The notes beneath the pieces are model-generated. The model made no database searches and had not been told where the DNA came from. It saw only the letters and a list, made by a program, of their open reading frames with translations. The translations under genes were made by a program, and so were the position numbers. From a virus, in the IMG/VR virus record IMGVR_UViG_3300003690_000003, positions 96,001 to 160,000 of that record: a stretch of DNA of 64,000 nt; one strand, 5' to 3'. Numbering within the stretch: position 1 is the stretch's first letter; the number at the start of each line of letters is the position of its first letter. Positions 3,764-30,282 of this stretch are shown piece by piece.

Positions 3764-4269
3764 AAAGTATACCCAGCACGTGCAATAATCACACTATCGG
3801 CTCTATCATAATAGCCGGGCTTCGGATTGCCATGCTTAGTATATTCTACCTTAAACTCGGGTGCTATGTCAAGCAGAAACTTTAAAACTTCTTCTTTAGC
3901 CTTTGTTCCTCTGGGAATTTTAATACCGTTAAGTTTTCTCGCTTGGCTGGCACCTATGTATTGAGGGTCCATGTGAAAAACATCTCTAATCGCTAATGAC
4001 GCCATTCCATTAAATCGCTGCAGGAGAGCCATTGTTTTGCCACTTGAACCGCCGCTATTAAAAAATACAAAGGGTTCCTCAATCCATATCTCTTGCGCTG
4101 CTACTTGTAGAAATCTTACATCGGCCAAAAACTCTCTTAAAGTCTCTATCTTTTCAAAAAGTCCTTTGTTTTTTCGAAGATCACAGTGTTCACAAAAAAT
4201 TATTTCTCCGTGTTTACTAATACACGACACACCTATAATGCTTGTACTAATATCAAAACCTAAAAACAT
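3736..4269 (-). CDS. RuvC-like Holliday junction resolvase
   Basis: N-terminal LGFDISTSIIG, central IWIEE and C-terminal DRADSVIIA give the RNase H-fold acidic pattern; adjacent to primase. Confidence 0.8.
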   Translation of the reverse strand: MFLGFDISTSIIGVSCISKHGEIIFCEHCDLRKNKGLFEKIETLREFLADVRFLQVAAQEIWIEEPFVFFNSGGSSGKTMALLQRFNGMASLAIRDVFHMDPQYIGASQARKLNGIKIPRGTKAKEEVLKFLLDIAPEFKVEYTKHGNPKPGYYDRADSVIIARAGYTLWKNKNFSS

Positions 4270-5651
4270 TACATATCTAGCTTAAGCTTGAATGTCATAT
4301 CCCGGGCTTCGGTTTTCTTAACGGGGGTAGCGAGCTTAACAACTCCGATTATGTTCTGCTGTACATCATATAGGACTATTTGACTAATGTACGTTGTTTT
4401 CACAAAACTTCCTGTAGGATCATTATAATCTGAATACGTAGTATTTTTAATCCCTAATGCCTCATTTTCATAAAATCCGATTGGGCCGGCCTCAAAAACA
4501 CCTGCGCCACTTTCAGAAACAAAAGTTGGATTATTTGAATGATTAAGCTCATTTTTTCTAGCATGTGCAAACATGGTTATAGTGGGGGTAACTGTCGTTC
4601 CTTTATAACTCAAATTCCAGCTTGTCTCATCGTGATCTTGAGTTTGAGTGGCCGGGTCGATCGCGCCGTCGATGCCGGCAGCAAAATACTTCCACTGGGG
4701 GGAGTTAATGTCTCCGTCATACGTCTCCTGAAATACCGGGTCTACATCCCAGGAACCGGTTAATACTATAAATCCTTCATTATATAATATAACGCCGGCT
4801 ACAGAACCAGAACCTTCACCTTGAGCATAAGCTGTGCCGGAAACTTGAATAAGATTTCCATTTCTATTCTTATCTTGTAGTTCTGCTACCAAAGTACCAC
4901 TAATATAGGTTTTTAGACTCACAGAGCCTTTTTTAATCGAGGTACCATAAAAAATCGAAGGAATAGAAATAAGTGCAACATCCGTCGCTCCGAGTTCCGC
5001 CCCACTCGCTAACAAGTTTCTTAGAGAAGAAGATACAGCATATTGTGGACTTAGCTTTTTATAATAGTTTAACGTATTCTTTAACGCATATAAATGCGAA
5101 ACCGATCCAGAGCTTGATACTTCCAAAGGGCCGCTGCCATCGGGTCCAGATGCTGTTATAACCGAGGACTCAAGGCGCGACGCGGAGGCTAGCCAATACT
5201 CTCTAGAAATCGAAGCCGTCAGGGGATAAGTATGAGTCATCACATCCCCCAGATTATTATCAGTGTTGAAGCTAGTTGTGCTTACAGTTTTAAATGAAGT
5301 ACGCGTGCCATCTTTAACCACAAACGGCTGAATGATAGGATTGAGACCTTTATAAGTATCTCTCGGGTCTGTTCCGTTTGCGACTGCCGCTTCCAAGGCT
5401 GGGAGCTTTACTCCCAAAGCATTTGCCAAGGCGGGAGGTTGCATAGCGCTTCCAGAACGGTCCACGTTCTCTTCAAAAAGAGAAATATAGCCAGGGGCGC
5501 AACTAAGAACACTGCCCGTGAACGAACCACTCATAGGAATGTTTTTATTATAGTATGCTATTCCCTGATATATATCAAACTCTATCAGAGGGTAAGATCT
5601 GATTGAATTAATAAAAAGATCATTACTTTGAAACTTAAAGATGTATGACAT
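4269..5651 (-). CDS. Virion structural protein (baseplate/tail-collar type), paralog of 5682..6782
   Basis: C-terminal YISQIVLYD...VKLATPVKK...FKLKLD resembles the tail-collar fibre (DUF3751-like) C-half; rich in S/T/G; lies in the structural module. Confidence 0.6.
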   Translation of the reverse strand: MSYIFKFQSNDLFINSIRSYPLIEFDIYQGIAYYNKNIPMSGSFTGSVLSCAPGYISLFEENVDRSGSAMQPPALANALGVKLPALEAAVANGTDPRDTYKGLNPIIQPFVVKDGTRTSFKTVSTTSFNTDNNLGDVMTHTYPLTASISREYWLASASRLESSVITASGPDGSGPLEVSSSGSVSHLYALKNTLNYYKKLSPQYAVSSSLRNLLASGAELGATDVALISIPSIFYGTSIKKGSVSLKTYISGTLVAELQDKNRNGNLIQVSGTAYAQGEGSGSVAGVILYNEGFIVLTGSWDVDPVFQETYDGDINSPQWKYFAAGIDGAIDPATQTQDHDETSWNLSYKGTTVTPTITMFAHARKNELNHSNNPTFVSESGAGVFEAGPIGFYENEALGIKNTTYSDYNDPTGSFVKTTYISQIVLYDVQQNIIGVVKLATPVKKTEARDMTFKLKLDM

Positions 5652-5656
5652 TGTTC

Positions 5657-5678
5657 TCTACCTTTTTAATTAGGTAGA
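5657..5678 (-). promoter_or_regulatory. Candidate late-promoter motif CTAATTAA within a 7-bp hairpin that covers the RBS of 4269..5651
   Basis: Minus strand reads TCTACCT-AATTAAAA-AGGTAGA-GAACA-ATG, a perfect inverted repeat at 5657-5663/5672-5678. Confidence 0.55.
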
Positions 5679-5681
5679 ATA

Positions 5682-6782
5682 TTAATAATCCAATCGAACC
5701 CTGAGTGTGAACTCATCATCGGGAGTCTTTTTAAGCGGCTCGGATAACTTTGCAGTTGCTAGAAGTTCGTTATCTGCGGAATAAAGACCTATTGTGGTAA
5801 TATATGAAACAGGACTATCATTGCTATTATTTTTAACTACAAGTTTGCTTGCGTTAAGATAGGTTGGATTAGAGGAATAGTTAAACTCATTGTTGTTTGC
5901 ACGACAGAAATAAATCGTCGAGTTTAGTTCGGTTGTATTGTTGAAAGAAACGTTCACGAACCTATTTCGAAAAGTATCACAAGAGGCGCTAATGTATGAG
6001 CCGGTAAATTGCTGTTCCACCGTGGAGCCGGAAAGATTGCCCGCGGCATGCTCCAGGGCCCGGGTGGTAAAGACGCAATGAGCGGCCGCGGGTTGCTGGA
6101 CGTTGGCGTCGAATAGGGATGCCGTTAAAACGCATATACCAGCTTGATAAAAAACAAGGCCGGCCGGTATTCCGGTGGCGCTGGGCGAAGCTTCGTAGTA
6201 GGAGCCACTATAAAGAAGCCCATATTCGCCGGCCGGAGAATTAATCTTATAAGCATTAAGCCCTCCCACATCTTGAATAAGGCAGCTGCCCGAAGGGTTG
6301 ATCGCGAGACCCCCTGTTAATACCGTAAGTGAAAAACTGCCCTTTTTAATCTCGTCTTTACTAAGAAGTCGAGCAAAGTTAATAAAGATGCATTCCTTTA
6401 CTTTAGTACCCCCCGACAAATCACCGTCTTGGTCGAACTGGCGAATATTGCCGGTTACATCATAGCCAGCTAGCACTTGAGCCATTTCATTATAAATATT
6501 AATCTTCTTAGCCTGCTGAGGGTTGAGAGTTGAGGTAGGGCTTGAGGCCGAATATCCAGAGTTGGGCGAAAAACCAATCGTTAAATCAAAGACATGATTT
6601 GCCGAGGAACTTAAATAGGGATAATCATATACTGATTCAAACATCCCATGAGTGTAGTTTTTAATGTTATTATCGCCATAGGTTCCAGAAACAATCGTTC
6701 CTGTTAATGGAATCGCCTCGTGAAGCATCGTTCTTGTCGAAACTACATCATTGTTTAAAAGTGTTTTAAAAGTACTAGCCAT
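5682..6782 (-). CDS. Virion structural protein (baseplate/tail-collar type)
   Basis: Shares IKKGS, NEFNYSSNPT/NELNHSNNPT and the C-terminal YITTIGLY...AKLSEPLKK...LRVRLDY with 4269..5651. Confidence 0.6.
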   Translation of the reverse strand: MASTFKTLLNNDVVSTRTMLHEAIPLTGTIVSGTYGDNNIKNYTHGMFESVYDYPYLSSSANHVFDLTIGFSPNSGYSASSPTSTLNPQQAKKINIYNEMAQVLAGYDVTGNIRQFDQDGDLSGGTKVKECIFINFARLLSKDEIKKGSFSLTVLTGGLAINPSGSCLIQDVGGLNAYKINSPAGEYGLLYSGSYYEASPSATGIPAGLVFYQAGICVLTASLFDANVQQPAAAHCVFTTRALEHAAGNLSGSTVEQQFTGSYISASCDTFRNRFVNVSFNNTTELNSTIYFCRANNNEFNYSSNPTYLNASKLVVKNNSNDSPVSYITTIGLYSADNELLATAKLSEPLKKTPDDEFTLRVRLDY

Positions 6783-6791
6783 TATATTATC

Positions 6792-7755: not shown

Positions 7756-7772
7756 AGTGTGAATCCTTCTTG

Positions 7773-7780: not shown

Positions 7781-7805
7781 TCTTTAATATTAAATAAATC
7801 CCATA

Positions 7806-14400: not shown

Positions 14401-15392
14401 GCGCCATTTACTACAGCTTCTAAATAATCAAAACCGAAATAAAGAGACAAATCATTATTTTCATTTTTCGAAAAATATAAAGGCGAAAGATAAGATGGTT
14501 TTTGTTTTCTAACTTTTTCTAAAGTTTTTAATCTATCGCGAACGGCCTTATTGGCGGTTGTCAAACCACTCAACTTATTAAAATCAAATGAATGTCTTTC
14601 TACTCTCGCAAGATTTCGCTGATCAACTATCTTAGAGTTAATAGTTTTCTGGACTCGGAGAAGATTTCCGGACTCTGAGCCGCCAGAGCCATCTCCAGTG
14701 CGCCAGCGCGCTCCCTGATCTTGGTGAACGTCGCCCACCCATAGGCTCAGGCTTGGATCATCAGAGGAAACACTTGCTGGATAAAACAGATTAGTTTCTA
14801 AGTTGACTATTGAGTTTTTAATGACCAGTTCAGAAACAGTTTTGCCAAATAAAACATCCGCTGGATCAATAACGCTGGTATCATTATCTTCATTTGTATC
14901 AACTATGGGTACCGCAAAAATACTTAAGTACGGAGGAGCGGCGCCGGGTACCTCAAATGATTTTCTAAAAAGCAAATCCGTACCGTACAGATCTCCATAC
15001 TGCTGCGCCTGTGTTGTAGAAAGGCCCGCACTTAGAGCAACGTCCCCTAAAACCGCTTCCTGAAGAGGATAAACTCCCCGCGAAACTTTACCGTTGTCCT
15101 GATTTGAGTTTAGAAAATCTTTAAGTTTCGTACGGTCAGCATATATCGATATTGCCAAAGCATCGTCACTAGTGACAACAACTAAAACATTTAACTTATT
15201 AAAAAATGACTCGCGAGTTCCTATTATAGAAGAATTGCTAGCAGCCGTAGTAAAATACTGCTTTAACACAAACTCCACATCTATCTTGAGCTTGTCGCCT
15301 CGATTATACAATGTAATATTTTTGATATAAACCGGAAATGTGTCTGGATCTTGACCGATAATGCTAAGACTATGTTCTGGGATATGTGCCAT
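11433..15392 (-). CDS. Large putative virion protein (1319 aa) with Ala/Thr/Pro low-complexity linker
   Basis: Long ORF, translationally coupled to the upstream gene (TAATG overlap at 15392); no catalytic motif recognised. Confidence 0.5.
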   Translation of the reverse strand: MAHIPEHSLSIIGQDPDTFPVYIKNITLYNRGDKLKIDVEFVLKQYFTTAASNSSIIGTRESFFNKLNVLVVVTSDDALAISIYADRTKLKDFLNSNQDNGKVSRGVYPLQEAVLGDVALSAGLSTTQAQQYGDLYGTDLLFRKSFEVPGAAPPYLSIFAVPIVDTNEDNDTSVIDPADVLFGKTVSELVIKNSIVNLETNLFYPASVSSDDPSLSLWVGDVHQDQGARWRTGDGSGGSESGNLLRVQKTINSKIVDQRNLARVERHSFDFNKLSGLTTANKAVRDRLKTLEKVRKQKPSYLSPLYFSKNENNDLSLYFGFDYLEAVVNGAKYEALYNNVNDKLTSCNMESIRVIRRRVNKPNVFNKLTGGDSPLRLFDKRVEVVGEPQRMDYNTSTGVMQYQIRDNSIKDITTGLYEYGVEITIEDKSRDKILQILTKPDPADPGIDLLIVQLERFLSTSLLSGNYNITTNRYTPLFIEKIKSGEALEYIDPATGAPRDVDYGAVSDMGPIEQSLTTTAAVAQGAIQQYSAALQNIIDFGGQPAIGGMGVITGTEGQELVSQTLARDANIRARQFGGGVITIVVGAPWSIAVNKYLTAMGFFFGPQTLQEQMNLFIAVNPLITGPSGIEFLIRLLRDFSSSLRSAIGVTKGSTTSMTQAPAAPTTGGKKIFTIRQFFLESIDTDALRPYGLDFLNTKRLLSVGSTTDAAVGGTIKRLTFDQWGRLVANETGKNDGVTQQGAIFLTPNFLRIPGRKPLDIFSDNNTTKNAIEEAFYEILSANINKNSPITFASTPGLKATNPALQHTNTRLIQNQNGIMHFNNCVATVFQNTPQNPIKNVFNTPATTEDLSANAEKGLDVSNLFSLNSEFITEPEREAAAEALSGSAAINLLQPGAGGSTSNLATQLVANVSQISNYLTQGDFFNGKPNPIVPALTTLSAGNFFVGGAGLPQVQAQVEQGNMAASLASSPALSSPAFANPATTPLPPPAPSEMAFINEVSDGNIDPGNTALIAARYGFVYIVEYMHAYMLGGVGSIVTAPVWYPLTLSVVQAADTGNRSLMCRLKRHKTHLANFDGLKMPIYNELFVIGGEGAVLELPNPSPTQAVAITYGVPSNIAANIDSFSDSIEFANSYDTDTRVGTNPTAAVAYAAQQAAAARATAAAAAQAQQAAAAAAAAAAAEATRVAAAAAATTTAAATMTTTTTGYAAAQQQAPTTPGPPPSLTGPERVQVYIAFYRWYKELLPNGKRRWQAGSHRPIAWPPPRSANSDRDRGVRTLKQLWFGWHTMPRRRNVITIYENQTGITIPTRVFEQNDNGQDY
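11750..11965. repeat. GC-rich low-complexity coding tract (poly-Ala/Thr)
   Basis: Degenerate GCN/NGC triplet runs encoding AAAQAQQAAAAAAAAAAAEATRVAAAAAATTTAAATMTTTTT. Confidence 0.85.
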
Positions 15393-16429
15393 TATTCACA
15401 GATATCCTCTTCTGGTGCATAAAGATCGCGAATGAAATACTCTCTGGTACTTATAACACTAGATCCGGGAGCTGTTCCAAGCGCCGAGAAGTCTTCTATA
15501 TTTGCCTGTCGCAACAAGTCATTACTTATTTCATTATCGACTTCTAGCGTTAAATAATATGGCACTTCTGTATTTGTATGAATAGCCGCCGAATCATCAT
15601 TAAATTTCAAGGGCAATAAGTTGCCAAACAAGGTGCTACTAGATAAATAAACTTCAATATCAAAGTTCTCTTTATTAAAATCTACGTTCTTTTCAGTTAT
15701 TTGAATAATCAAATCTTCTGGGCTAATAACTACATAGGTTCCATCTGGTTTAATAGTTGTCGTTATCGCTTGAATATTGTGTACATTGTGTTGTTGGGTC
15801 AGCGCTTCGTCTGTATATTCAGGACTATCCGCGAGGGCTGGGGACCAATCTTCTATCGCTGCAGCATACGTTCTATATTTGATAGCAATATCAATTTGAG
15901 GAATCTTTTCTATTCCGGCGGAGCTCGTATAAAAAGAAAGTGATGACGAGATCTCGCCGTGGCGCGCCGTTACTGCCCATGCTGGCTGTTTGTTAGAGTT
16001 GAGCCTCGATCTTCCTAATGGTTTTGTAAAAAAATCAATCCTATCTTGAACATATTGTAGTTCTTGGCGATTATAGATTGCACCTGGATCCATGAATAAA
16101 GGATCGTCAAGAAGGGTGCGGTCTTCTTTAAATATGGCACGAATAATCGCTGCGCTAGCACTTTGAGCCGTCTGGATACCAGTAAATACATTTAAGGTTT
16201 TAGTGGAGGGAGTATCATCTTGAATCCTTGGCTCTATACTATTTTGGCCTTCAGTTACAGTAACTTGTGTACTAGTATTATCCCCCCCCGTAAACGCAGA
16301 GTTGTATATTATACCTTCATCAAAAAAAGCATAATAAGCCGGCTTAAAAACGCCCTTGGAAAGCTTATATCTTCCATATGGGGTTAGCTTTACTTCTAAA
16401 ACTTCTTGCTTTTTATTAAAAAACTCCAT
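15392..16429 (-). CDS. Virion structural protein, tail-collar-like N-terminus
   Basis: KLTPYGRYKLSKG...YYAFFDEGIIY parallels VLTDTGRMRLAKG...KFALADDEINY of the 7755 gene. Confidence 0.55.
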   Translation of the reverse strand: MEFFNKKQEVLEVKLTPYGRYKLSKGVFKPAYYAFFDEGIIYNSAFTGGDNTSTQVTVTEGQNSIEPRIQDDTPSTKTLNVFTGIQTAQSASAAIIRAIFKEDRTLLDDPLFMDPGAIYNRQELQYVQDRIDFFTKPLGRSRLNSNKQPAWAVTARHGEISSSLSFYTSSAGIEKIPQIDIAIKYRTYAAAIEDWSPALADSPEYTDEALTQQHNVHNIQAITTTIKPDGTYVVISPEDLIIQITEKNVDFNKENFDIEVYLSSSTLFGNLLPLKFNDDSAAIHTNTEVPYYLTLEVDNEISNDLLRQANIEDFSALGTAPGSSVISTREYFIRDLYAPEEDICE

Positions 16430-16438
16430 TAATCTTTC

Positions 16439-19400: not shown

Positions 19401-22400
19401 GCATTTAAGGCAGCGCCCGTAGGCGACATAGGAAGATCCACTTGACTACCGGCATATCCGCGTAGAGTGCGATTATTATTCCATATATTACTAATAGAAT
19501 AGTTTACTCTCCGACGATTTCTATTAAGACCGGCATTCTTAGCTGCGGGATAAACTGTTTGTTTGTAGTTTACAAGTACTTTGTCTATATTTTCGAAAGG
19601 AGAGTTCTCAGTATTTCCAGCGGTATCTTTAAGAAGAAGCTCATTTAGACGATTGAAATACAAATCTCCTCTCTTAGTGTCGAGTTTGAGATTATATCTA
19701 TTTGTGAGTTCAATGTTTGCAAAGTAATCTACTTTATTAGCAAATGAATGATTATAAATCAATGACTGATCGATAAACGTTACATTTCTATCATTATCGA
19801 CCACTCTATTGGTGGAAACAAGAGTGTGAGTCATTACTTTGTGCTGGCTCCCTATAGGAGGTTCTATATAACTAACAATCTCGTTGCCTTTAAGACCGCG
19901 GACGCCAGTGGCCCGGTTTACTATAGTCGGGAGTGTTCTTACAGTTAGGCGGTTGTTCTTTCTTTGTTCTCGCACTAATGGGTGTGAGTGTGGGCCCGCT
20001 TGGATTTGTCGGAATGTAGGCCAGCCATAAGGGCCGTTGCGGTGAAGCATGAGAGCGTTGAACATCTGCGCAGTGCCGGCGCCTTGGCCATAGGTGCCAG
20101 CAGCGGCTTCTCCAGTACCATCGTAAATAAACCCCTCAATATATCCAAAATCTTCAGCATTCCTATTGGCATATTGCGTCTCGATCGCATCGGACTGGGA
20201 CGGGTAAAATAGTTTTACGCGCTGCTGTCCATTAAGTGTAGATAAAATATCCGTGTTTAAAGGAAATCCTAAAGTATTTTGGGACGCAGTAAGCGGATCC
20301 TTAAGAACAGTATTCAGACCCGCAAAATTTGGTCCATAAAACGGATATCCGCCGGCAGCTACGGTCTTTCGTGTAGCGCCCCATCGGTACAGGGGGAACC
20401 ACAGCGGATATGCCCCACCGGCCGGGCCCCTGACCGTGCAGCCAAAATCACTTGCCGAAACAAACTGATCTTCTAGTTTGTAATGGAAAGGTCCATCATA
20501 TCTTGAACCGTCGATAGAAAGATCTGAAGCCACTGCTCCATTAACAGTACCATTGTGACCACCAATCTGATCGATTATCATCGTAGCCGAATCACCCCTT
20601 CCATCGCCCATGCGATACCAAGAGAGCAGACTGGCGGCCGCGCTGTGTTGTTTAAAATTCTTTGCTGTACCATTGTTATATGCCTCTTCGGCCTGGTTTG
20701 CTGATAGTTCAGTGTTCCAAATAGCCACTTCATCGATGTTGCCATCAAAGTAGCCGCCAGGGGCATCAAGTTCGACTCCTATGGTGCCGTTCTCGGTGGC
20801 GATGGCCGCGGGGTTATCCAGCTGGAAGCCGGCACTTGTAGTACGATCGACGCCGTCGAGATACAGTTTCATACCGCCGAGAGAGACCCCTGCAGGATCG
20901 CCCCCCTCAAAGGTTGCCACGACATGGTGCCACTGATTATCATTTAAGTACGCAGTACCCGTCTTAATACGCCCGTTGCTGTCGCTACCATCAATTTGGA
21001 ATCTAATCCCGTCGCTAGAGTTGGTATAAAGAGCACGACCATAAATACCAAAATGTATTAACTGCTGATAGCTGCTCCAGTCCGCGGAATTAAACCACAA
21101 AGAAATCGAAAATGGCTTAGCGCTGGTGCCGCTTCCGCCAATAAGACTGTTCCAGGTAACGGCTGTTCCAATATCAATATAATCATTTGTATCATCAAAA
21201 AACATCGATGAACTGTTCTGAAGATATGCATAGCTTGTTAGACCATCATATCCATAAACCTTCGCGGTAGGAAGGAGTGAACCTGTAATCCATGCATATT
21301 GTCTATCGCTCTGCGGGATTTGATGAGTTACGTAAGCATTGTCATAGGTGTTGGTTTGATAGGTCGGCCATGAAACTCCTCCGGCGGCGAGGGCTTCGAA
21401 GCGCTTAGGAGCATGGGCGTGCTGAAGCACCAAGTCAGTTGCTAGCGAAGCGCTTGCGGCACTACTGCCAATAAGGCCCATTTGATTATCAACGGAAGCG
21501 TTTGTATCGCCGGCGTAGGAGTTGAAACGATACCACGCTTGCAGACTCGTTGGAAGCGTCTCCTTGATATTAACAACAACTCCATTATTATATAAACTCT
21601 TCACTTCGGCTGCAGCCAGGACCTTTGACCAAACCGCAAAATTGCTAATATAAGCGTTGGTATTCGCGGTTCCGCTATCTCTACTCCCAATAGTTAGGCC
21701 TTTTATAATCTGGCCAGAAGTACTCGAATTAGCTACGGTATCATTATCATTGACCCCATTAAGATAAATTGTGGCAGTTTCATCGCCGCCGTTGTCGCTC
21801 CCCCCGTTATAGGTTATAACCACATGATACCACCGATTGGTGGTAAGTGCTGTAGCGTTCAGGACGGTGACGCCTGAACTGTTGTTGCCAAAAAACTTTA
21901 AGAGACCGGTCGAATAAATATTCATATATCTCTGTACACCAAATGCCCAAACCTTGCTGCTGCTCCCGGGGAGAGTCGGAAGCCGCAGCCACAGAGAAAC
22001 ACTAAATGGCAATGCAGCGTTGCCCAAGCCACCTACAAGAGATGTCCAATCACTGGCGATGCCGGCCTCTACATAGCTTGTAGAACCATTGAAATAGCCA
22101 GCCCCCACAGGCGCCTCTTTGATCACACGCTTCGGATTTCGGTTCATCTTATTCCATGAGGGGAGGTTGGAATAAGCAACCTGAGTCAAACCATACTTGC
22201 GGATCCCCGAAGCCGAGCTGCTGGCCGCAACGCCGACTTCCACGCCAAAGCGACCAGAATGTAAAGTAGACCGCTGGTTGAGTCCGCGCGCATAATCAAT
22301 CTGATCTACAACATGGATTGTACCGGATATGCTAGGATCGCCCGGAACCGAGCCGGTGCGTCCATAGTCTATAACTCCACGGTTGCGCCAAGGAAGTGCG

Positions 22401-25400
22401 TTATATACTGACTTCTCTTCGTGAGCGGGATCCATATAGCCGCGAGATGAGACATCCCAGCCACCAGGAGCATTAAACCTGTTAACTATAATAGACTGGT
22501 TAGAGTTTGCGCCGGTACGCGTAGGAAGGGTATATTCTAAGTTGCCCCCCACATTTTGTGTAAGATTTCCAAAGGAAGGAGAGGTCTTTTGTATAGCACT
22601 AGCTGGGAGGCTCTCAGGGGTTCCATTATGAGCGCCCACCTCATCGATCAGCGAGTTTACACCAAGACTGTAGCTCGTTGAACCATCGGTGGCGTCATTG
22701 GCATTATCTCCGAGTTTCCACCAAGATATAAGATTTCCACTGGCGGCGGCAACAGTCTGTTTCAAATTAAGGCGCGCACCGTTATTATATATTTCGGTAA
22801 CATGATCTTGAGAAAGTTCTTTTCTCCAAACGGCAGCATCACATATATGACCGAGCCATTCATCCTGAACACCGGTGCCGCGGGCGCCTATAAAACATTC
22901 CATGCCGCTGATTTCAAGCGGAGCGCTAACAGTGTCTACCAGGTTGGTATCCAGTGTGCCATTAACATATAATTTTTGTGCACCGGTGGTGTCGCCCTCA
23001 AATGTGGCCACAATATGCATCCACACTCCCGTTGTAATCGTACTTGTATTTACTTTACCCGTATCGACGCTGCCAGCAATAGTAAACTCAAAGCGGCCCG
23101 AGTCGCCAGTATCCCAATAAAGACGTCTATCTGAATTTGAAAAATCAAAAATGCGGTCATTGTCACTAATACTAGGATCTACTTTTACCCACGCTGAAAG
23201 GCTGAATGCTTTCGCGCTGCCCCCGGCGCCGCCAATCTCCGCTGCCCAAACCGTGTCCGCCCCAATCAAAACCCTATCGTCGGTGGTCTCACCCCCAAAA
23301 TATACCGAATGAACTTCAGGAGTCTGCAGCGGGAATCGACCTCTCGTGGCCAAAGTCTCAGGATACAACGCAAAGTCAAACGACTGATCTTGGAAGAACG
23401 GATCATTAATGCTTCTTCCAGCGGTTTGTATAATCTGGTAGTTCTTCTGATAGTTTCCTATCCTGCTATGCATTATTGTCCCGGACATTCTCTGGTTCAG
23501 AGAACCGGTTGTCATCAAGATATTCTTGATATTAACTGGACGTTTGGTGCCAACATTCCTCTTAAGATTGGCTTTTGGTCGATTAAATAAGTATGGAGGG
23601 CTTACTGCCGGCGAATCTTCTTGTGGGTATTGAGGGCCTACAATACCGAGGGCGCCCACCTCGGCGTCGGTGGCGGGAGGAAAGATCCGGCCACCGGTCC
23701 AAAGTCCTAATAGAAGCTTAAATCCTTCTGCGCGGTCGTCGGCGTTATCTAAACCACCACCGAGGGGATCGCCCTCCCGATGTGGCCTTGAACTAGAAAC
23801 ATTAAGCTCAATATGACGGTGTTCGCGGCCTCCTACAAACTTCTCAGTAAAAGGTCCCTGCATTGGAACTTCATAGTCGGGCCCATAAACATCGGTATGT
23901 AGATTGGTTAACTGTACGCTTCCTGTAAATCGATTAACTATTTGGAGATTGTAACCGGTGTTAACTGATGAACTATATAAACTAAACGGCGCTATTAATT
24001 GACCGTCATTGGTTGTAAAATATGGAGAATTGGCGGGCTCTTTGTTGATAAATCCCATACCAAAGCCGAGTCTTCTCTTAACTCCCGGGTTTAAATTATC
24101 GGAAATATTTTGCCATTTCTCAACATCGTCTCCAAAAGCTAGCATTATATTAGCAGGAATATTGGTACCAGGAACTCTTGGGCCGGCTGGATATGTTGCT
24201 GCATAAACCACGTCACGCTGTTTTTTGCGAGTATAGTTTACGCCACTACGAATAGTCCGCAGCTTCTTAAAACTATTCTCTATAGTAAATCTATAAGGGG
24301 TCGATTTTTTTCTATTACGAACAGACTCTGTTGTCTTAAGAACCATAGTCCGGCTATGATTGACGCTTGCAACTGAAGAACTAACAGGATTTAATGTCGT
24401 TCCCTCCATACCGGCATATTTTGGATACCTCTCTGCCATCTGCAGCCAATAAGTTGCATTAACACTTTGTGAGAGTACTGTGGGGGGAGGCCCTGTGATA
24501 GGGGTGAGTATCGGATGGTGAGCGTACTTCCAGCCCGGGCTTAATGGAAGCACCGTTAAGAGAGGCCCGATGGGATCCGAGGGCTTCATTTCTAAAGTGG
24601 GGAACTTGTGTTGATATTTATCGCGCGCTAGTATGTGATTTTCCACCATTATTCGAATGCCATCTGCAAAATCTGCAGATGCCGGTACCAACTGTTCAAT
24701 CATCTTACCCAAAGAAGTATCAAACCATTTATAAAACTCAATATATTTATCTAAATCGGGTGTATTCTCAACGCGTTCAAAAAATAGCTCTCTCAGCTTT
24801 CCTAACCGTTTATATTGAGGACGATATTTATTAACTGGCTCTCCAATAAGATTGTTAAAATCGACAATGGAACCAAATATATTAAGCATTTCCTCTGAAA
24901 TGGTTTGATACATGCTCTTTTCGAATGCAAAAAAGAAAGTAATTGGACGTGATTCCCGTGTAAACTCAAGATCGTCTTGCGTGGTCAATACTTTAATCAT
25001 GTCTTGAGCATAAAGATTCTCGGGCAAATTCTGTTTTGCCGAAACTAAGTAATCTACGTCTACCACTTTAACAGAACTAACCGGGAATCCGTAACCTCGG
25101 CCGGTATGTTGAGCATTTAATATATTCCCTAATGCCCCGTAACGAGTAGTTTGAAGTGCTGTTGAACCAGAAGAAAAGTCTGCCACCACAAACTCTCCAG
25201 AAGCATCTGAGCCGGTTACCTGTTCAAAATCCCAGTTTAGTGCCAAAGTTTCTATTTGTGGAACTTCGAAATTGTTTTTACCATCCTGGAACACATAGGC
25301 ACTTCTGTAGGGATGCAGCGCGCCATAGTTTTTAACATCTCTTGCGTGGGCTTTAATCGCATCATTCTCTAAATAATCCAGCCAATATCTGCATGCTGCC

Positions 25401-28400
25401 ATCTTAACATCCGACTTGGCTAAAACAGATCCAGTAAAGTTCTCAACATGAGCGCCCACATATACGCGCTTTGACCCCGTCATAAAACCATCCGGAACTT
25501 CAGATTGAAGTAAAGAACCGCTTACACTAAACTCATTTAATATTACATCAGCATCATACTGCACTCCATATAGCTCAACAATCCAGCTATGCGAAGTAGC
25601 ATCGCTTCCGGTTACAAAATCCATCTCTGGATAGGTACTGGGACGTACGCGGACTGCTAACGACCATTTGCTATTATCATAAACCTGTTCAAATAACGGA
25701 CTTGTCAGGACAGAACCGGTTATACAGCCGCCAGAACTGGCGCTTAAAACGAACCTTGCATTATTATCGCCAGCCGCTCCACGTGCGACAAAGACTTGGA
25801 AGTTAGTCCTGTCAAGAGAGTTCCAAGTTGTTTCATCCGAGAAGAGTATTTCGCTATCGACTGCGGTATGAACTCCAAATATAGAGGCTGATACTTCAGT
25901 AAAGTTCTGAGTTGAATATAAATCGCTCGCTTGAGCGAACTTCTTAGGGAATAATACTTCGGCTTCTAATGTAAAAGCATAACCATTTGCGAGGAAGGCC
26001 CCCCCGGTAATATAATTTACTGAGTTGCTATTGGCGTTAGAAGCGTTTTGAAATACCAAAGAAGAAAAACGATCTGTGTGATTAAAGTCTATCAGACGAT
26101 CACGTGATTCCGCCATCGTTGTATTATCACGAAGTTCATATTCTATATTGTCTCCATATAAGCTCAGCTTAACTACTTCTTCATCTATTCCAAAACAACG
26201 AACCAGATTTCTAAAACTTTTTTCAGTTCCCTTGGACTTATAAATGTGAATCAGATTATTATAAATGTTCTGATATATCATACTCTTAATGTCAGTAAGA
26301 GATTTTACAAAAAGCCTATCTTCGCTTCTATCGGCTAGCTTTTCTAAAACGTCTGCGTCTAGAAATAACTCTGGAGAGAGTAAGCCGCGCGCGTCTAAAA
26401 GTCTATTACTAAAAATATTTGGTTTGTCGGATCCGCTAACATACCCAAAATCTTTAATGGTATTAACGTTTTCTATCTGCAGTTGTAGAGAGTCAAAATA
26501 CATCGCACAAATTTGTGTTAAGTTTTTTAATTCATCGCCACCCTTAGAATCTTCTTCCTGAATCCAAGTGGGAAACATACCAAATAAAGACGAATTATTA
26601 GTATGATCGTAAACAGATCCGGAGGTTTCCAAAGAAGTTAATACGGCTTGGACCTCTGGATGTGAGGGGTACAAAATAGGATCTCGGAACTCAGTGGCTG
26701 CAGCTGAAGCCGATACAATGGCAGAGCCCGTATTTCTAATAGCGGAATAGTATGTCGCATCGCGTGTCCAGGCACCGTTGGTCACGCGGCCTGAAAAGTC
26801 TAGAATAGTTAGGTCTTTACTTTCAACCCCCGTAATACCTTCATTGAACTTATAGTATACTCCCAAATCGGTATTTGCCAGGTCAGTGTTAGTACCCCCT
26901 CCCACTTGAGTAAACCAATAACGACCAATATCCTTCGAACTTCTTTGGGTCTTCCAATAGCGAAACTCGTCTAAAGAACCAGAAAGTTTACCGGCGCCGG
27001 CGGTGACGGTCGACGGTGTCGTTGTACCCGATGGAGCAGTTCTAAGGGCGCCTATATACGCCGCCATAGAGCCGCTAACCTTGTTGAGCCCAGTGGTACC
27101 TAGCAAAAGCTGCTGTTCAAAATCGCCATCAACATAAAATCTAGAGGTGATGCCGGCAGATGCTGACTTAAAAGTAAATGCATAGTGATGCCAGTTTCCA
27201 TCAGCCACTGATGCGGCGATAAAAGTATTCGTAGGTATCAACCCAGAACTATAAGTTAAACCAGCCGGATCAAGTTGAATAGTTGGAAGAGTCGTTGTGG
27301 CCGCAGGAGTCATATGATCCGTTCCAATCTGATCATAAATTGCCGAATTTGTGTCTCTTGAGCCATCGCCCATTCGCCACCAAGAAATAATATTTGACAC
27401 GTCAGAGCGCTGGCCTAAGTTTGTTGGCTCCCCGCTGTTGTAAAGTGCAGTAACTTCGGCTGAACTTAGTACCACCTTCCAAACACTTACCTCGTCTATA
27501 TAACCGGTAAAAGCCTGATCCTTCTCTTCGTCGTTTCCTAAGAAAGCACCATAAGTAGAGATAGTACCCCAATCATTCCTGGCCGTATTATAGCTACTAT
27601 TAAGAGTCTTAACCACACCATCGACATAAACGATTGCTGTTTCTGCCGGACTCGTAGCGGCGTTTCCATCATATGTTACAACTATGTGATGCCATGTATT
27701 ATCACTAATTGCATTATTGTTAGTTCGATTATTTAAATTGGTGCCGGCGGTGTCGGCATAAACTTGAATTCTATTGGCATGACTGATGGCGACCCTAAAA
27801 TCATCATTCCCTAGGGTAAAAATCCTATCTGGTGTACTGCCGCCGCCGTCCGCGGTTTTGTATACCCAAGCCGAAAAAGTGATTCTCCTGTTCGTGAGTG
27901 CCGTATTCCATGTTCCGGCTGAGCGCGTGCCGCCCAATCTAGCCGTAATATCACTATCGCCGCTAAATAGCACCCCCTTGGGCGCTGCTGTCACAGCTGA
28001 CGCGTCCACAAAGCCCATCGTCCCGGACATCATTGTTAGAAGGAAGGGACTCGTTCCATCATCGGAACCGGTTAAATCAATTCTAAAACGACCATAATCT
28101 GCGCTTGATGAGTTGGCATAGTTCCAAAGATCAAAAATAACCTCTTTTCCGGTATTGTTAGTCGTATCAAACGCATCCTTTTTCAGCCAAAACTCTACAG
28201 ATGTCCCATTGGTTAAATCAAGTTCTAGATTTGATTCTCTATTATCCGCCGGCGACCATATATTAGCCGGAGCGGTACGAGGGACCGTGCTTTTAAGATG
28301 AGGGCCTCCGTAAAGGCTAATATATTCAAGATCTTCTGGAAGACCATAGCCATCAACTATACTTCCGTCACGATCGCCCCATCCACCATAAGAAAAGTTA

Positions 28401-28735
28401 ATATATCCTGTAGTTCGTGGATATCTCTCTTCAAAAACGTATAAATCTACATATGAAGAACTATTTTCCCAGCTAAGTCTCTCATATAAAGACCCATCAT
28501 AAGGATAGGCCTTATAAATATTTCTTACTGCGTCCCCATAATATTGTTTAGCAGACCCATATCGCGCAAAGTTTTCAGGTTTTGAATAATCAATAGGAGG
28601 TAGATAGCGGCTTTCTTTAACAATGTCTGCGTCGTGATAGTTAACTGATTCTACATCAGCGCCTACACTTTCTTCTGTTCTGTTTGTTAAAGATTTAGCA
28701 ATCGAAATCTTACTAAATAGATCTTTAAGACTCAC
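16439..28735 (-). CDS. Giant (4098 aa) baseplate/tail-appendage protein with multiple LamG/ConA-like lectin domains
   Basis: Repeated LamG signatures (FSxSxW, WHHxVxT, xYxDG, G-x-IDEVxxW, SWW/YRxGD). IYKSKGTEKSFRNLVRCFG resembles the P2 gpI/T4 gp7 wedge motif. Lies downstream of the gp6-like gene. Confidence 0.8.
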   Translation of the reverse strand: MSLKDLFSKISIAKSLTNRTEESVGADVESVNYHDADIVKESRYLPPIDYSKPENFARYGSAKQYYGDAVRNIYKAYPYDGSLYERLSWENSSSYVDLYVFEERYPRTTGYINFSYGGWGDRDGSIVDGYGLPEDLEYISLYGGPHLKSTVPRTAPANIWSPADNRESNLELDLTNGTSVEFWLKKDAFDTTNNTGKEVIFDLWNYANSSSADYGRFRIDLTGSDDGTSPFLLTMMSGTMGFVDASAVTAAPKGVLFSGDSDITARLGGTRSAGTWNTALTNRRITFSAWVYKTADGGGSTPDRIFTLGNDDFRVAISHANRIQVYADTAGTNLNNRTNNNAISDNTWHHIVVTYDGNAATSPAETAIVYVDGVVKTLNSSYNTARNDWGTISTYGAFLGNDEEKDQAFTGYIDEVSVWKVVLSSAEVTALYNSGEPTNLGQRSDVSNIISWWRMGDGSRDTNSAIYDQIGTDHMTPAATTTLPTIQLDPAGLTYSSGLIPTNTFIAASVADGNWHHYAFTFKSASAGITSRFYVDGDFEQQLLLGTTGLNKVSGSMAAYIGALRTAPSGTTTPSTVTAGAGKLSGSLDEFRYWKTQRSSKDIGRYWFTQVGGGTNTDLANTDLGVYYKFNEGITGVESKDLTILDFSGRVTNGAWTRDATYYSAIRNTGSAIVSASAAATEFRDPILYPSHPEVQAVLTSLETSGSVYDHTNNSSLFGMFPTWIQEEDSKGGDELKNLTQICAMYFDSLQLQIENVNTIKDFGYVSGSDKPNIFSNRLLDARGLLSPELFLDADVLEKLADRSEDRLFVKSLTDIKSMIYQNIYNNLIHIYKSKGTEKSFRNLVRCFGIDEEVVKLSLYGDNIEYELRDNTTMAESRDRLIDFNHTDRFSSLVFQNASNANSNSVNYITGGAFLANGYAFTLEAEVLFPKKFAQASDLYSTQNFTEVSASIFGVHTAVDSEILFSDETTWNSLDRTNFQVFVARGAAGDNNARFVLSASSGGCITGSVLTSPLFEQVYDNSKWSLAVRVRPSTYPEMDFVTGSDATSHSWIVELYGVQYDADVILNEFSVSGSLLQSEVPDGFMTGSKRVYVGAHVENFTGSVLAKSDVKMAACRYWLDYLENDAIKAHARDVKNYGALHPYRSAYVFQDGKNNFEVPQIETLALNWDFEQVTGSDASGEFVVADFSSGSTALQTTRYGALGNILNAQHTGRGYGFPVSSVKVVDVDYLVSAKQNLPENLYAQDMIKVLTTQDDLEFTRESRPITFFFAFEKSMYQTISEEMLNIFGSIVDFNNLIGEPVNKYRPQYKRLGKLRELFFERVENTPDLDKYIEFYKWFDTSLGKMIEQLVPASADFADGIRIMVENHILARDKYQHKFPTLEMKPSDPIGPLLTVLPLSPGWKYAHHPILTPITGPPPTVLSQSVNATYWLQMAERYPKYAGMEGTTLNPVSSSVASVNHSRTMVLKTTESVRNRKKSTPYRFTIENSFKKLRTIRSGVNYTRKKQRDVVYAATYPAGPRVPGTNIPANIMLAFGDDVEKWQNISDNLNPGVKRRLGFGMGFINKEPANSPYFTTNDGQLIAPFSLYSSSVNTGYNLQIVNRFTGSVQLTNLHTDVYGPDYEVPMQGPFTEKFVGGREHRHIELNVSSSRPHREGDPLGGGLDNADDRAEGFKLLLGLWTGGRIFPPATDAEVGALGIVGPQYPQEDSPAVSPPYLFNRPKANLKRNVGTKRPVNIKNILMTTGSLNQRMSGTIMHSRIGNYQKNYQIIQTAGRSINDPFFQDQSFDFALYPETLATRGRFPLQTPEVHSVYFGGETTDDRVLIGADTVWAAEIGGAGGSAKAFSLSAWVKVDPSISDNDRIFDFSNSDRRLYWDTGDSGRFEFTIAGSVDTGKVNTSTITTGVWMHIVATFEGDTTGAQKLYVNGTLDTNLVDTVSAPLEISGMECFIGARGTGVQDEWLGHICDAAVWRKELSQDHVTEIYNNGARLNLKQTVAAASGNLISWWKLGDNANDATDGSTSYSLGVNSLIDEVGAHNGTPESLPASAIQKTSPSFGNLTQNVGGNLEYTLPTRTGANSNQSIIVNRFNAPGGWDVSSRGYMDPAHEEKSVYNALPWRNRGVIDYGRTGSVPGDPSISGTIHVVDQIDYARGLNQRSTLHSGRFGVEVGVAASSSASGIRKYGLTQVAYSNLPSWNKMNRNPKRVIKEAPVGAGYFNGSTSYVEAGIASDWTSLVGGLGNAALPFSVSLWLRLPTLPGSSSKVWAFGVQRYMNIYSTGLLKFFGNNSSGVTVLNATALTTNRWYHVVITYNGGSDNGGDETATIYLNGVNDNDTVANSSTSGQIIKGLTIGSRDSGTANTNAYISNFAVWSKVLAAAEVKSLYNNGVVVNIKETLPTSLQAWYRFNSYAGDTNASVDNQMGLIGSSAASASLATDLVLQHAHAPKRFEALAAGGVSWPTYQTNTYDNAYVTHQIPQSDRQYAWITGSLLPTAKVYGYDGLTSYAYLQNSSSMFFDDTNDYIDIGTAVTWNSLIGGSGTSAKPFSISLWFNSADWSSYQQLIHFGIYGRALYTNSSDGIRFQIDGSDSNGRIKTGTAYLNDNQWHHVVATFEGGDPAGVSLGGMKLYLDGVDRTTSAGFQLDNPAAIATENGTIGVELDAPGGYFDGNIDEVAIWNTELSANQAEEAYNNGTAKNFKQHSAAASLLSWYRMGDGRGDSATMIIDQIGGHNGTVNGAVASDLSIDGSRYDGPFHYKLEDQFVSASDFGCTVRGPAGGAYPLWFPLYRWGATRKTVAAGGYPFYGPNFAGLNTVLKDPLTASQNTLGFPLNTDILSTLNGQQRVKLFYPSQSDAIETQYANRNAEDFGYIEGFIYDGTGEAAAGTYGQGAGTAQMFNALMLHRNGPYGWPTFRQIQAGPHSHPLVREQRKNNRLTVRTLPTIVNRATGVRGLKGNEIVSYIEPPIGSQHKVMTHTLVSTNRVVDNDRNVTFIDQSLIYNHSFANKVDYFANIELTNRYNLKLDTKRGDLYFNRLNELLLKDTAGNTENSPFENIDKVLVNYKQTVYPAAKNAGLNRNRRRVNYSISNIWNNNRTLRGYAGSQVDLPMSPTGAALNASIWPLDGHGYPSPGTTADTNFQDTLSSNPLSGSGLLQNCFSGFDQWGEGNITASCMYTQRCMIGISGAAGDGGAPTSFNTNNPRANFPGDAEYQVAEQAGKKPYLTYDQYCENLRLIGKDYSIVPEFRISEQMDYYLNTAAEDFWAPNNSFLDLTGSSIADSSENNFFKVYSNSDFMRFFSVVDETYDNKSLVNGDIMKKDKLALRCSGLVKFLPYKGLSSSYGPFMKCTAAACGNDDEATSPDWAGGSRLPKRGGGRITSDFMETKAAFRAFVEPLAGPGILYNTIKSGIGVSNYILRSIWDGYIRDYLGHTVGRDVQYSARSQTKQIGGANCPRAGSDDFGEYYGWKGLLPLNPSASYSTLVDETGYYYYMHKLPFEALLHPVQHMSTRILAPIQVPAADDPNPAANYDNFNAGYIFDRGVGSGSISSSYGHLASNPTNPTLANCMNAVRWPGDGLKNYELAIDNFVCETVDFFQTGLKSFKSSREDQFREVKSGSVYGMKVSLNRTQQSIIGAASPAQTQLSKQVADTTIFTMYNRASGFGRPMSASFEGTANIPSWVHVTPPYYDGEAVATILFKPQYDGKPMLADIFSNSEITYQRSGEYLSPDASTNTIFLNDPDAKQRFAAMQISASVDLTREVTAIIANTTTATKRWLIQTKFETPVLNFAAVSASTPLTPTAAAHSGDLLATKGMWHQKGAICQGREGIFISLTDPGHIESSPNGDANYNVQSLLDVVGFSPVVKRIGSITDAKVVSEAVVAVPFTIALDGRRKFYRFSKHQRNGAIRILAGQQTQVQVKPDVLKICKALKDYVFPPKFDFVTTETGRETIDPFVMFVFEFTKKFSQQDLADIWQNLPPETSGESLQAREATIQHSLLAEDFFDSDQRQISEHMRWMVFKVKRRAKSNYNKYKATGLTDDLSTVPNSIDSPYTYNWPYDYFSLVELVKMDMGIQYASSESVEDVEAAQDLADQAAADAAQGALNLLG

Positions 28736-28740
28736 TTTTG

Positions 28741-30282
28741 TTACCCTTCCTCAACCCTAAACTTAAATTCTTCTGACTGTTGGACCCAGTCCTTTGATGA
28801 ATCATTATAGTAAACGAACTTTAGACCATAAGAATAGCCGCCTTCTAATAATGACATGTTTAAATCAAAATAGTTTCCTGATACATCATAAGAAAGATAA
28901 GAATATTTGGTACTGCCAGTTCCATATGGAATCACATTAAGATCGTCTACTACCCGGAAAACACGATAAGATGCGCTTACAATCGTTTCATTAGGAATAA
29001 TCGCTGTCGCTACACTATAAATGGAATCATTTATTGCCTTTGGACGTACATAAAGTCTAAACCTGGCTGTCTCACTTCGGATATAACCATCCTTAAGGTT
29101 GGATATTGCAGTTACATATTGGGTCGATGGCGCATTATCATAAGCCACAAGGGTTTTTGGAGCAACGGAGCCAGTAAAAAGTTCAGTAGTCCCATCATGC
29201 CATACATCGTAAAGCTGTGTTAAAGTACCTGTGGCGGCAAACGATGCTGAGTATATGCCGGTTTTGTACCATCCTCCAGTCACATTGATATCCAAATTGG
29301 CCGCGACATCCCCTCCAACTGGAAGTGCTAACTTAGAGCCCGCAGGGGCTGTTGAACCCGAATATAAGCTAAGCAGTATTGTTCCGGTTCCTACCGATGG
29401 AATGTCAACGAGGCGCCCTCGAACATAGTTATATAAGTATAAAGTATTAAGATTGTCTGTTGCGGTGGCTAGAGAGCTGCTATAATAAAAGCTACCGCGG
29501 TTATCTTTAACACGTGAGTCCCAGCGCGCCTCTAACACCGGGCGCTTGAAGAAAAACTCTGAAGATCTTGCAAAAAACTTTTTAGTATAGTAGGATTCAG
29601 TAGCTCCCACAGTATTTTGAATAAGGCCACCGGTTGTATTAATCCCCGTAGAACTTGAAAAATATGCTTCCTGACTAGCTGTAAGTCGCACACTGAGGCC
29701 ATAATTATCATATTCACCGCCGGACTCGCCGACTATCCAGTTTTCTACGATTTCAGAAATATCTATTTCTAGATCTTCATAGCCATTCGGGAAAGAAGCA
29801 TTATAGGTTGGAGCGCTCAAATAATCGCCACCTACCGTGGTCCACGCGCCAACCTTGCCTCTGCGCATCCAGTTCGAACCACTATTATCATAAGTGCGAT
29901 CAGTATACTCTTCCATATCTAAACCAACGCCTTCTTCCCAAGAAGATGAGATGGGTTCTATTACCAGATTAAATTGGCGAGGCAACGTATAAGCATGCCG
30001 AGCGTTATACATTCTTAGATAAAAACTTACACTCCCGCTAGCAGGAATGGTGCCCGCTGTTCGATCTGTCGAAATCGTCGACACTGGAAACTCAATTATG
30101 GTGCGTGTTAATTCTTGGGAAAGCCCATCCGATCCGGAGGCTTCACCATAAATAGAAAAAACCTCTACTACATCGGCCATTCCCATATTAGACCCCGTTC
30201 CTCTCTGACTTTCCAGCAAAGAAGACTTAAAGGCATTTGTTATAGTATTATCTTTATTAGCCGTATAACGCTTAATAGCCAT
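28741..30282 (-). CDS. Virion protein, DNRLRE-like carbohydrate-binding fold
   Basis: Pattern A.KDNTI...RTIIEF...LRMY...SSSWEEG...NW...W...GGD...DISEIVENW...NYG...FFARSS...RPVLEARW; structural context. Confidence 0.55.
   Translation of the reverse strand: MAIKRYTANKDNTITNAFKSSLLESQRGTGSNMGMADVVEVFSIYGEASGSDGLSQELTRTIIEFPVSTISTDRTAGTIPASGSVSFYLRMYNARHAYTLPRQFNLVIEPISSSWEEGVGLDMEEYTDRTYDNSGSNWMRRGKVGAWTTVGGDYLSAPTYNASFPNGYEDLEIDISEIVENWIVGESGGEYDNYGLSVRLTASQEAYFSSSTGINTTGGLIQNTVGATESYYTKKFFARSSEFFFKRPVLEARWDSRVKDNRGSFYYSSSLATATDNLNTLYLYNYVRGRLVDIPSVGTGTILLSLYSGSTAPAGSKLALPVGGDVAANLDINVTGGWYKTGIYSASFAATGTLTQLYDVWHDGTTELFTGSVAPKTLVAYDNAPSTQYVTAISNLKDGYIRSETARFRLYVRPKAINDSIYSVATAIIPNETIVSASYRVFRVVDDLNVIPYGTGSTKYSYLSYDVSGNYFDLNMSLLEGGYSYGLKFVYYNDSSKDWVQQSEEFKFRVEEG

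What the first reader, a model, noticed from the sequence alone, without database searches (positions are those of the whole stretch)
4269..30282. Recurrent [S/T]-[G/A/S]-S tripeptide in a subset of virion proteins: candidate O-glycosylation sequon
Seen (hand counts): TGS/SGS/SAS/TAS/SSS, usually after a hydrophobic residue, occurs about 12 times in the 460-aa protein (4269), 8 in the 366-aa protein (5682), 13 in the 513-aa protein (28741) and about 40 in the 4098-aa protein. I see almost none in the gp6-like protein, the 2526-aa protein or PhoH. It is also nearly absent from the four inserted LamG cassettes of the giant protein, although these are equally S/G/T-rich, so simple composition does not explain it. 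The sites are dispersed rather than tandem, as expected of a recognition mark. Established: some mycobacteriophages and giant eukaryotic viruses glycosylate their virions with virus-encoded glycosyltransferases. Inference: these are acceptor sites for the GTs encoded at 43.9-58.1 kb, giving a densely glycosylated baseplate/appendage coat. This is the strongest candidate here for an undescribed system.
Basis: partly seen in the sequence, partly recalled or inferred. Interest (0 to 1): 0.88.

Follow-up and report, generated by a model that had tools for sequence, protein, structure and literature searches.

The report
Probable sugar-attachment tag on phage surface
The outward-facing proteins of this marine phage and of its many relatives, including a cultured one, carry the tripeptide Ser/Thr-Gly/Ala-Ser three to five times more often than chance; the tag tracks a conserved pair of phage sugar-transferases predicted to form one complex, so it probably marks where the phage attaches a sugar coat, though no chemistry shows this yet.

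Summary
Observation confirmed: [ST][GAS]S occurs 12, 8, 13 and 44 times (expected 2.6, 1.9, 3.2, 15.7), and SGS, TGS and SAS pass Bonferroni in an unbiased tripeptide scan. The tag is virion-wide (capsid insertion, neck, outer sheath, fibres) and lineage-wide: cultured Flavobacterium phage immuto_2-6A, Mel-JY01 and hundreds of contigs. It is 3.8x enriched in outer proteins, 0.55x in inner ones, gained 2-3x more often than permuted controls, absent from four newly inserted LamG modules but present in the native LamG domain. Only two of the window's transferases are core: tandem GT4 genes 56816-58075 (GT-A) and 55572-56819 (GT-B), adjacent in 146 of 146 loci and predicted to form a heterodimer (0.85 vs 0.00). 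The one nested relative lacking GT-B (LR756508) has largely lost the tag. Best reading (0.65): a serine O-glycosylation sequon read by a phage GT-A/GT-B complex that works like bacterial GtfA/GtfB but is not a member of that family. Against: one loss event, no glycan shown. I found no paper on the motif; this scan noted it before on other genomes.

The parts
4269..5651 (-). 460-aa peripheral baseplate protein; 12 tag sites
   Evidence: 12 vs 2.6; family 4.4x over 69 orthologs; 88 distinct site columns, 3 in at least half of orthologs
5682..6782 (-). 366-aa peripheral baseplate protein; 8 tag sites in coil, strand ends and helix ends of the model
   Evidence: (3.6x); homologs in immuto, Mel-JY01, RM378, LR756508
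6958..7755 (-). 265-aa neighbour, not enriched (internal contrast)
   Evidence: 2 vs 0.9; family 0.94-1.0x
15392..16429 (-).
   Evidence: 4 vs 0.8; family 3.5x
16439..28735 (-). 4098-aa baseplate-region protein; 44 tag sites; five orthologs of 3550-4138 aa carry 40-68
27236..27973 (-). Inserted LamG module 1 (aa about 255-500), 0 sites; it interrupts a native LamG domain whose C-terminal part has 3 sites
   Evidence: orthologs skip this stretch
22541..23329 (-). Inserted LamG module 2, 0 sites
21386..22123 (-). Inserted LamG module 3, 2 sites (exp 1.8)
20471..21223 (-). Inserted LamG module 4, 1 site (exp 1.3)
28741..30282 (-). 513-aa baseplate-region protein; 13 tag sites; orthologs carry 8-15
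30282..32087 (-). gp6-like inner wedge protein, 0 sites (negative contrast)
32595..40175 (-). 2526-aa protein, 0 sites vs 4.8 expected (negative contrast)
56816..58075 (-). GT-A: core GT4 glycosyltransferase with the RK and E-x7-E signature; predicted partner of GT-B
   Evidence: best PDB match chlorovirus B736L, E 1.7e-20
55572..56819 (-). GT-B: core GT4 glycosyltransferase directly after GT-A; the gene that tracks the tag
54706..55575 (-). Third GT-like gene, confined to close kin
   Evidence: not in the core list
43939..54709 (-). Variable sugar block (NTP transferase-kinase, methyltransferase, GT/GT9 fusion, HAD, transaldolase, AraD, HldE-type kinase, RpiB-nucleotidyltransferase); candidate glycan elaboration module, replaced by other sugar genes in immuto

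Best explanation
[S/T]-[G/A/S]-S, usually between hydrophobic residues and away from charge, is an acceptor sequon. During infection the soluble phage GT-A/GT-B GT4 heterodimer O-glycosylates it, most likely on the invariant third Ser, in proteins destined for the virion surface. The variable sugar genes next door then supply or extend a lineage-specific glycan, giving a coat over head, neck, sheath, baseplate rim and fibres. Shown: the motif, its outer-face bias, recurrent gain, the core tandem GT pair, the paired loss in LR756508. Predicted: the heterodimer. Inferred: that sugar is attached, which Ser carries it, the order of enzymes and the purpose of the coat.
For: (1) De-duplicated outer virion proteins: [ST][GA]S 1082 vs 283 expected (3.8x); inner virion 38 vs 69; non-virion 43 vs 64; permuted tripeptides 1.0-1.5x. 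(2) Within single proteins: capsid insertion 547 vs 152, HK97 core 34 vs 65 over 141 MCPs (core defined by the T4 gp23 alignment); all 14 sheath sites lie at aa 143-643, none in the C-terminal core. (3) Specific chemistry: Thr at position 3 only 1.33x, Asp/Asn at position 1 0.96x, bulky or charged middle residues 0.6-0.9x. (4) Sites lie in unrelated folds and in mixed secondary structure. (5) Parsimony gains 399 vs 130-198 for controls, and 3.2 vs 1.4-2.3 tips per gain. (6) Same fold, different history: native LamG domain 3/1.1 here, 7/2.2 and 3/0.8 in orthologs; four inserted LamG modules 3/6.0. (7) GT-B is present in 11 of 11 complete IMG/VR genomes and follows GT-A in 146 of 146 loci with room. 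(8) LR756508 is nested among tag-positive phages (SH-aLRT 98), keeps 24 of 27 core genes and lacks only GroEL, PhoH and GT-B; its tag density is 2.9 per 1000 aa vs 11-15, and no protein in its 484 kb is enriched at p<0.01. RM378 has a GT-B with an altered donor-binding motif and a weak tag. (9) GT-A+GT-B complex: ipSAE 0.85, best of 3 controls 0.00; this mark was reached by 58 of 80 solved and 2 of 110 mismatched pairs; runs agree in at least 96% of contacts, partner pLDDT at least 89. (10) The nearest solved structure for both GT profiles is chlorovirus B736L. (11) Some GT-B homologs are fused to GT2 or PF01973 domains.
Against: No glycan has been observed. The covariation is one clean loss, plus one ambiguous case (RM378). 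LR756508 virion proteins are more acidic and poorer in S/T/A, and RM378 infects a thermophile, so habitat may confound both. LR756508 keeps a residual 1.7x. A GT-pair phage binned in MAG G035 has a sheath with 2 sites vs 1.8, although a neighbour has 7 vs 2.2 (fragment). Some sites sit inside predicted strands or helices, and solvent exposure could not be computed. I assigned outer and inner classes from T4 homology after seeing part of the data, and left three unenriched proteins of unknown position (265, 1191, 1319 aa) out of both pools. Pooled homologs are not independent, and depletion in single genomes is weak (17/20.6, 18/20.4). B736L's own activity is uncharacterised (PMC9614988). The complex score is a model confidence, not a measurement.
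Confidence: 0.65

Rival explanations
1. Structural or physicochemical motif: an ST-turn or tight small-residue packing unit favoured in beta-rich outer domains. The GT pair is core for another reason, such as a DNA, host-envelope or small-molecule acceptor.
For: Many sites are at strand ends and loops. In fibres the motif lies in h-x-G-S-h repeats, with a spacing peak at 6. The fibres of LR756508 favour DGT and DGS instead, as an Asx-turn substitution would.
Against: Asx turns are interchangeable with ST turns (own knowledge), yet [DN][GA]S is at 0.96x and [ST][GA]T at only 1.33x. The same LamG fold has the tag when native and lacks it when newly inserted. Sites occur in unrelated folds and are re-invented. 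S-CBS4, TJE1 and LR756511 show no excess.
Confidence: 0.17
2. The motif is a recognition site for another modification or reader (a kinase, methylase, host enzyme, chaperone or decoration protein). Its link to GT-B is shared ancestry.
For: The sequence statistics show that something reads the motif, not what. GroEL and PhoH are also missing in LR756508. A host enzyme that methylates phage tail proteins is reported (PMC13445384, abstract).
Against: Of the three core genes lost with the tag, only GT-B is a transferase. The tag persists in phages recorded on different hosts (Flavobacterium, Microcystis as annotated, Rhodothermus weakly), which fits a phage enzyme better. No other core modifying enzyme was found.
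Confidence: 0.11
3. The tag is glycosylated, but by the variable GT9/heptose block or by host transferases, as the first reader's wider 43.9-58.1 kb assignment allows.
For: Gene 49092 has a weak TibC/Aah-family match (TIGR04414, E 4e-4), and the block could make a heptose-like donor.
Against: 19.4 bits vs a cut-off of 200. The block is not shared with immuto or G029, which carry the tag at the same density.
Confidence: 0.07

Closest known systems
Mycobacteriophage virion glycosylation by phage-encoded GTs (Freeman et al. 2023; not held; read only through PMC12619734 and PMC12582341)
   Same: A tailed phage with its own glycosyltransferases proposed to decorate virion proteins.
   Different: There the glycans are at the C-termini of capsid and tail tube subunits (PMC12619734). 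Here sites are many, internal and dispersed, the tube is depleted (0.34x), and neither GT-A nor GT-B hits a mycobacteriophage.
GtfA/GtfB priming complex for serine-rich repeat proteins (PMC6973325)
   Same: A cytoplasmic two-protein GT complex that puts the first sugar on Ser/Thr in S-x-S sequences, with conserved priming genes and variable extension GTs.
   Different: No GtfA or GtfB model or structure was hit. Both phage subunits keep catalytic signatures, whereas GtfB is a chaperone. Acceptors are dispersed tripeptides in folded virion proteins, not tandem repeats exported by accessory Sec.
Chlorovirus GT B736L / PBCV-1 A546L (PDB 3OY2)
   Same: Best solved-structure match for both GT profiles (E 1.7e-20 and 1.6e-8); a virus-encoded soluble GT-B-fold enzyme among candidate capsid-glycan GTs.
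   Different: Its activity is uncharacterised (PMC9614988). Chlorovirus capsid glycans are N-linked with no common sequence pattern (PMC4691112).
Flavobacterium phage vB_FspM_immuto_2-6A (Immutovirus, NC_055915) and Mel-JY01 (PP395634)
   Same: Same lineage, same GT-A/GT-B pair (gp181/gp180 in immuto) and same tag (SGS 64 vs 20, TGS 50 vs 21 in immuto; SGS 33 vs 4.5 in Mel-JY01).
   Different: Different accessory sugar genes. I found no paper reporting the motif or virion glycans for them.
Autotransporter heptosyltransferases TibC/Aah (TIGR04414)
   Same: Serine O-glycosylation guided by a short local motif (own knowledge); weak match of gene 49092.
   Different: Far below cut-off and not a core gene.

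Membership tests
Mycobacteriophage-type virion glycosylation | Phage encodes its own glycosyltransferases | tested here: met
Mycobacteriophage-type virion glycosylation | Glycans present on virion proteins | not testable with these tools
   needs mass spectrometry or glycostain
Mycobacteriophage-type virion glycosylation | Attachment at C-termini of capsid and tail tube | tested here: not met
   capsid sites at aa 60-290 of 603; tube family 0.34x
Mycobacteriophage-type virion glycosylation | GTs homologous to the mycobacteriophage enzymes | tested here: inconclusive
   no mycobacteriophage among tblastn hits of GT-A or GT-B; profile comparison not done
GtfA/GtfB (SRRP priming complex) | Two adjacent GT genes whose products form one complex | tested here: met
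   tandem in 146/146 loci; predicted heterodimer 0.85 vs 0.00, a prediction only
GtfA/GtfB (SRRP priming complex) | Sequence match to GtfA/GtfB families (DUF1975 domain) | tested here: not met
   no such NCBIfam, Pfam or PDB hit; only SdgA at 16.5 bits vs cut-off 800
GtfA/GtfB (SRRP priming complex) | Second subunit is non-catalytic | tested here: not met
   GT-A R205 K206 E286 E294 and GT-B R193 K194 E280 E288 are invariant
GtfA/GtfB (SRRP priming complex) | Acceptor is a tandem serine-rich repeat region | tested here: not met
   sites dispersed, broad spacing distribution
BAHT heptosyltransferases (TibC/Aah) | TIGR04414 match above cut-off | tested here: not met
   gene 49092: 19.4 bits vs 200
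Phage DNA-glycosylating systems | An enzyme that makes a hydroxymethyl base as acceptor, shared with the GTs | tested here: inconclusive
   Tet_JBP not found in 5 genomes but the control was silent; none among 27 core genes; immuto has a separate 7-deazaguanine system
Chlorovirus capsid-glycan GTs (B736L/A546L) | Homology beyond generic GT4 | tested here: inconclusive
   top hit by ten orders of magnitude for GT-A, but only over about 140-160 profile positions

The most novel reading that the evidence does not exclude
A widespread aquatic myophage lineage has a sequon-directed glycosylation system of its own: a heterodimer of two active GT4 enzymes reads a three-residue code that selection writes onto every outward-facing virion protein and removes from inner ones, producing a whole-virion glycan cloak whose outer sugars vary through swappable gene blocks.
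Probability: 0.5. Interest if true: 0.86.

Novelty: new variant of a known kind. Interest (0 to 1): 0.72.

Why it matters
Virion glycosylation in tailed phages is known from a few mycobacteriophages, and I found no report of a sequon. If true, this gives a readable attachment code, a named enzyme pair and a function for a very common viral GT family (7025 GT-B-like clusters; nearly absent from cellular genomes). A cultured member (immuto_2-6A on Flavobacterium LMO8) makes it testable with one purification and one mass-spectrometry run. A soluble two-subunit O-GT with a three-residue tag would also be a compact glyco-engineering tool.

Tried and rejected
DNA-level repeat: rejected, codons are mixed. 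Composition or low complexity: rejected by shuffles and permuted tripeptides. 'GT trio' or heptose block as driver: rejected, not core. G029 looked tag-poor around its capsid gene, but the near-whole genome is strongly positive. Phages with only a distant GT-A-like gene (S-CBS4, TJE1) show no tag; MT835496 was uninformative (74% GC). Searches for more GT-A-only genomes found none, so the loss stays a single event. I found no unrelated phage lineage with the pair, so that claim in an earlier scan note is not reproduced here. Fold searches for the 366-aa protein were inconclusive (best Z 5.7, rmsd 1.9, 69 residues, phi812 baseplate). The Tet_JBP search was silent in the controls too. No RNA holder listed. 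Freeman 2023 is not held. All-against-all clustering timed out and was replaced by reference-based families.
Full report
Setting. The window is 96,001-160,000 of a 170,861-bp virus record, held by hydrothermal-vent and seawater metagenomes. It is a T4-like myophage: gp6 and gp25, a gp23-like capsid protein and a gp18-like sheath. Its closest catalogued relatives are LR756508, Flavobacterium phage immuto, Mel-JY01 and RM378. I did not test whether it belongs to the 'moraphages', which also have core GTs (PMC12619734).

Observation. An unbiased scan of all tripeptides puts SGS, TGS, SAS and SSS at or near the top. Codons are mixed, so selection is on the protein. The flanks favour hydrophobic residues and avoid charge and a following Pro.

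Where the tag sits. Across the genome it also marks the sheath, capsid protein, neck protein and several fibres, but not the tube, portal, terminase or enzymes. Ortholog families repeat this: 460-aa 4.4x, 366-aa 3.6x, 345-aa 3.5x, neck 3.6x, sheath 2.5x, capsid 2.4x, against tube 0.34x, portal 0.33x and gp14-like 0. After de-duplication, outer proteins have 1082 [ST][GA]S against 283 expected, inner virion proteins 38 against 69, and non-virion proteins 43 against 64, while permuted tripeptides stay at 1.0-1.5x. Within the capsid protein the insertion has 547 against 152 and the HK97 core 34 against 65; all 14 sheath sites lie outside the C-terminal core. Caveats: I set the classes by T4 homology, partly after seeing the data; three unenriched proteins of unknown position were left out; homologs are not independent; and depletion in single genomes is weak.

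Tag or structure. In the AlphaFold models, sites fall in coils, strand ends, strand interiors and helix ends of unrelated folds. Position 3 is nearly strictly Ser (Thr 1.33x), and Asp/Asn cannot replace position 1 (0.96x), unlike a generic turn. Sites turn over: 88 columns in the 460-aa family, only 3 of them in at least half of the orthologs. On family trees the motif is gained 399 times against 130-198 for controls and is kept longer. The four LamG modules of the giant protein are insertions, skipped in alignments with five orthologs. The first interrupts a native LamG domain that carries the tag, while the inserts do not. Something appears to read the tripeptide itself.

Which enzyme. Of the sugar genes at 43.9-58.1 kb, only GT-A (56816-58075) and GT-B (55572-56819) are core. 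GT-A is in 8 of 8 and GT-B in 11 of 11 complete IMG/VR genomes, and GT-B follows GT-A in 146 of 146 loci with room. GT-B occurs in only 14 of 185,579 cellular genomes, all metagenome bins, on phage-like or gapped contigs where I inspected them. Both keep the GT4 catalytic signature. ESMFold2 predicts a heterodimer: score 0.85, best of 3 controls 0.00, a mark reached by 58 of 80 solved and 2 of 110 mismatched pairs, with at least 96% contact agreement and partner pLDDT of at least 89; GT-A's C-terminal residues 411-418 pack on GT-B 248-256. This supports binding and does not show it. The nearest solved structure for both profiles is chlorovirus B736L, whose activity is unknown.

Natural experiment. 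LR756508 (484 kb) nests among tag-positive phages in the capsid tree, keeps 24 of 27 core genes, and lacks GroEL, PhoH and GT-B. Its capsid, neck and two sheaths have 1, 1, 1 and 0 sites; density is 2.9 per 1000 aa against 11-15 in four GT-B genomes. Its sister contig L294 is also negative. RM378 has a GT-B with an altered donor-binding motif and a weak tag. The outgroup LR756511 had no GT-A or GT-B hit and no tag around its capsid gene. This is one clean event, confounded by more acidic virion proteins, and a MAG-binned phage with the pair has an unenriched sheath.

Mechanism. Most likely (0.65) the GT-A/GT-B complex O-glycosylates the third Ser of the tag on surface-bound proteins, and variable neighbouring genes build the rest of the glycan, as with the conserved priming pair and variable extension GTs of serine-rich repeat adhesins (PMC6973325). 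Attachment, site, donor and purpose are inferred. Rivals are a structural motif (0.17), another reader (0.11) and glycosylation by the variable block or the host (0.07).

Novelty. It works like GtfA/GtfB priming and like mycobacteriophage virion glycosylation, but fails defining tests for both. I found no paper describing the motif. Earlier notes of this scan reached a similar reading on other genomes; these are not independent evidence, and I looked at them only after stating my own reading. Verdict: a real, lineage-wide, directly testable candidate sequon; new variant of a known kind; interest 0.72.

Noticed in passing
window 49092-54709: Heptose-like nucleotide-sugar block (HldE-type kinase, RpiB-nucleotidyltransferase fusion, AraD, transaldolase, HAD, GT9 fusion) with no GmhA seen; not core to the lineage.
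   Followed up: partly
window 4269-7755 and 15392-16429: The 460- and 366-aa proteins share a C-terminal segment, and the 265- and 345-aa proteins share an N-terminal segment. From memory they resemble the two halves of a tail-collar fibre anchor domain; no Pfam hit, best fold match a phi812 baseplate chain at Z 5.7.
   Followed up: partly
window 20471-27973: Four LamG modules, 28-34% identical to each other, are inserted in the giant protein; orthologs carry none or one at other positions, suggesting an exchangeable sugar-binding module.
   Followed up: yes
P0055, P0062, P0077, P0106: GT-B homologs fused to a GT2 domain or to PF01973, a domain I recall from Maf flagellin glycosyltransferases.
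   Followed up: no
L290, L292 (PP395634): Mel-JY01, deposited as a Microcystis phage, falls in the same capsid clade as Flavobacterium phage immuto; its host record may deserve a re-check.
   Followed up: no
L291:14299-20262; L626/L637; L627/L638: Tandem duplicated sheath genes in LR756508 and in two IMG/VR genomes.
   Followed up: no
L377:9881-12829: GT-B, the third GT and a GT2 sit next to an N-run in a WOR-3 MAG chromosome; probably a mis-scaffolded phage fragment.
   Followed up: partly
L087:10616-11893: RM378 GT-B ortholog, annotated hypothetical, has a degenerate donor-binding motif and may be inactive or altered.
   Followed up: partly
L403:9480-13571 (MAG G035): 48% GC member of the lineage with the GT pair: sheath not enriched, adjacent 634-aa protein enriched; possible partial decay of the tag.
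   Followed up: partly
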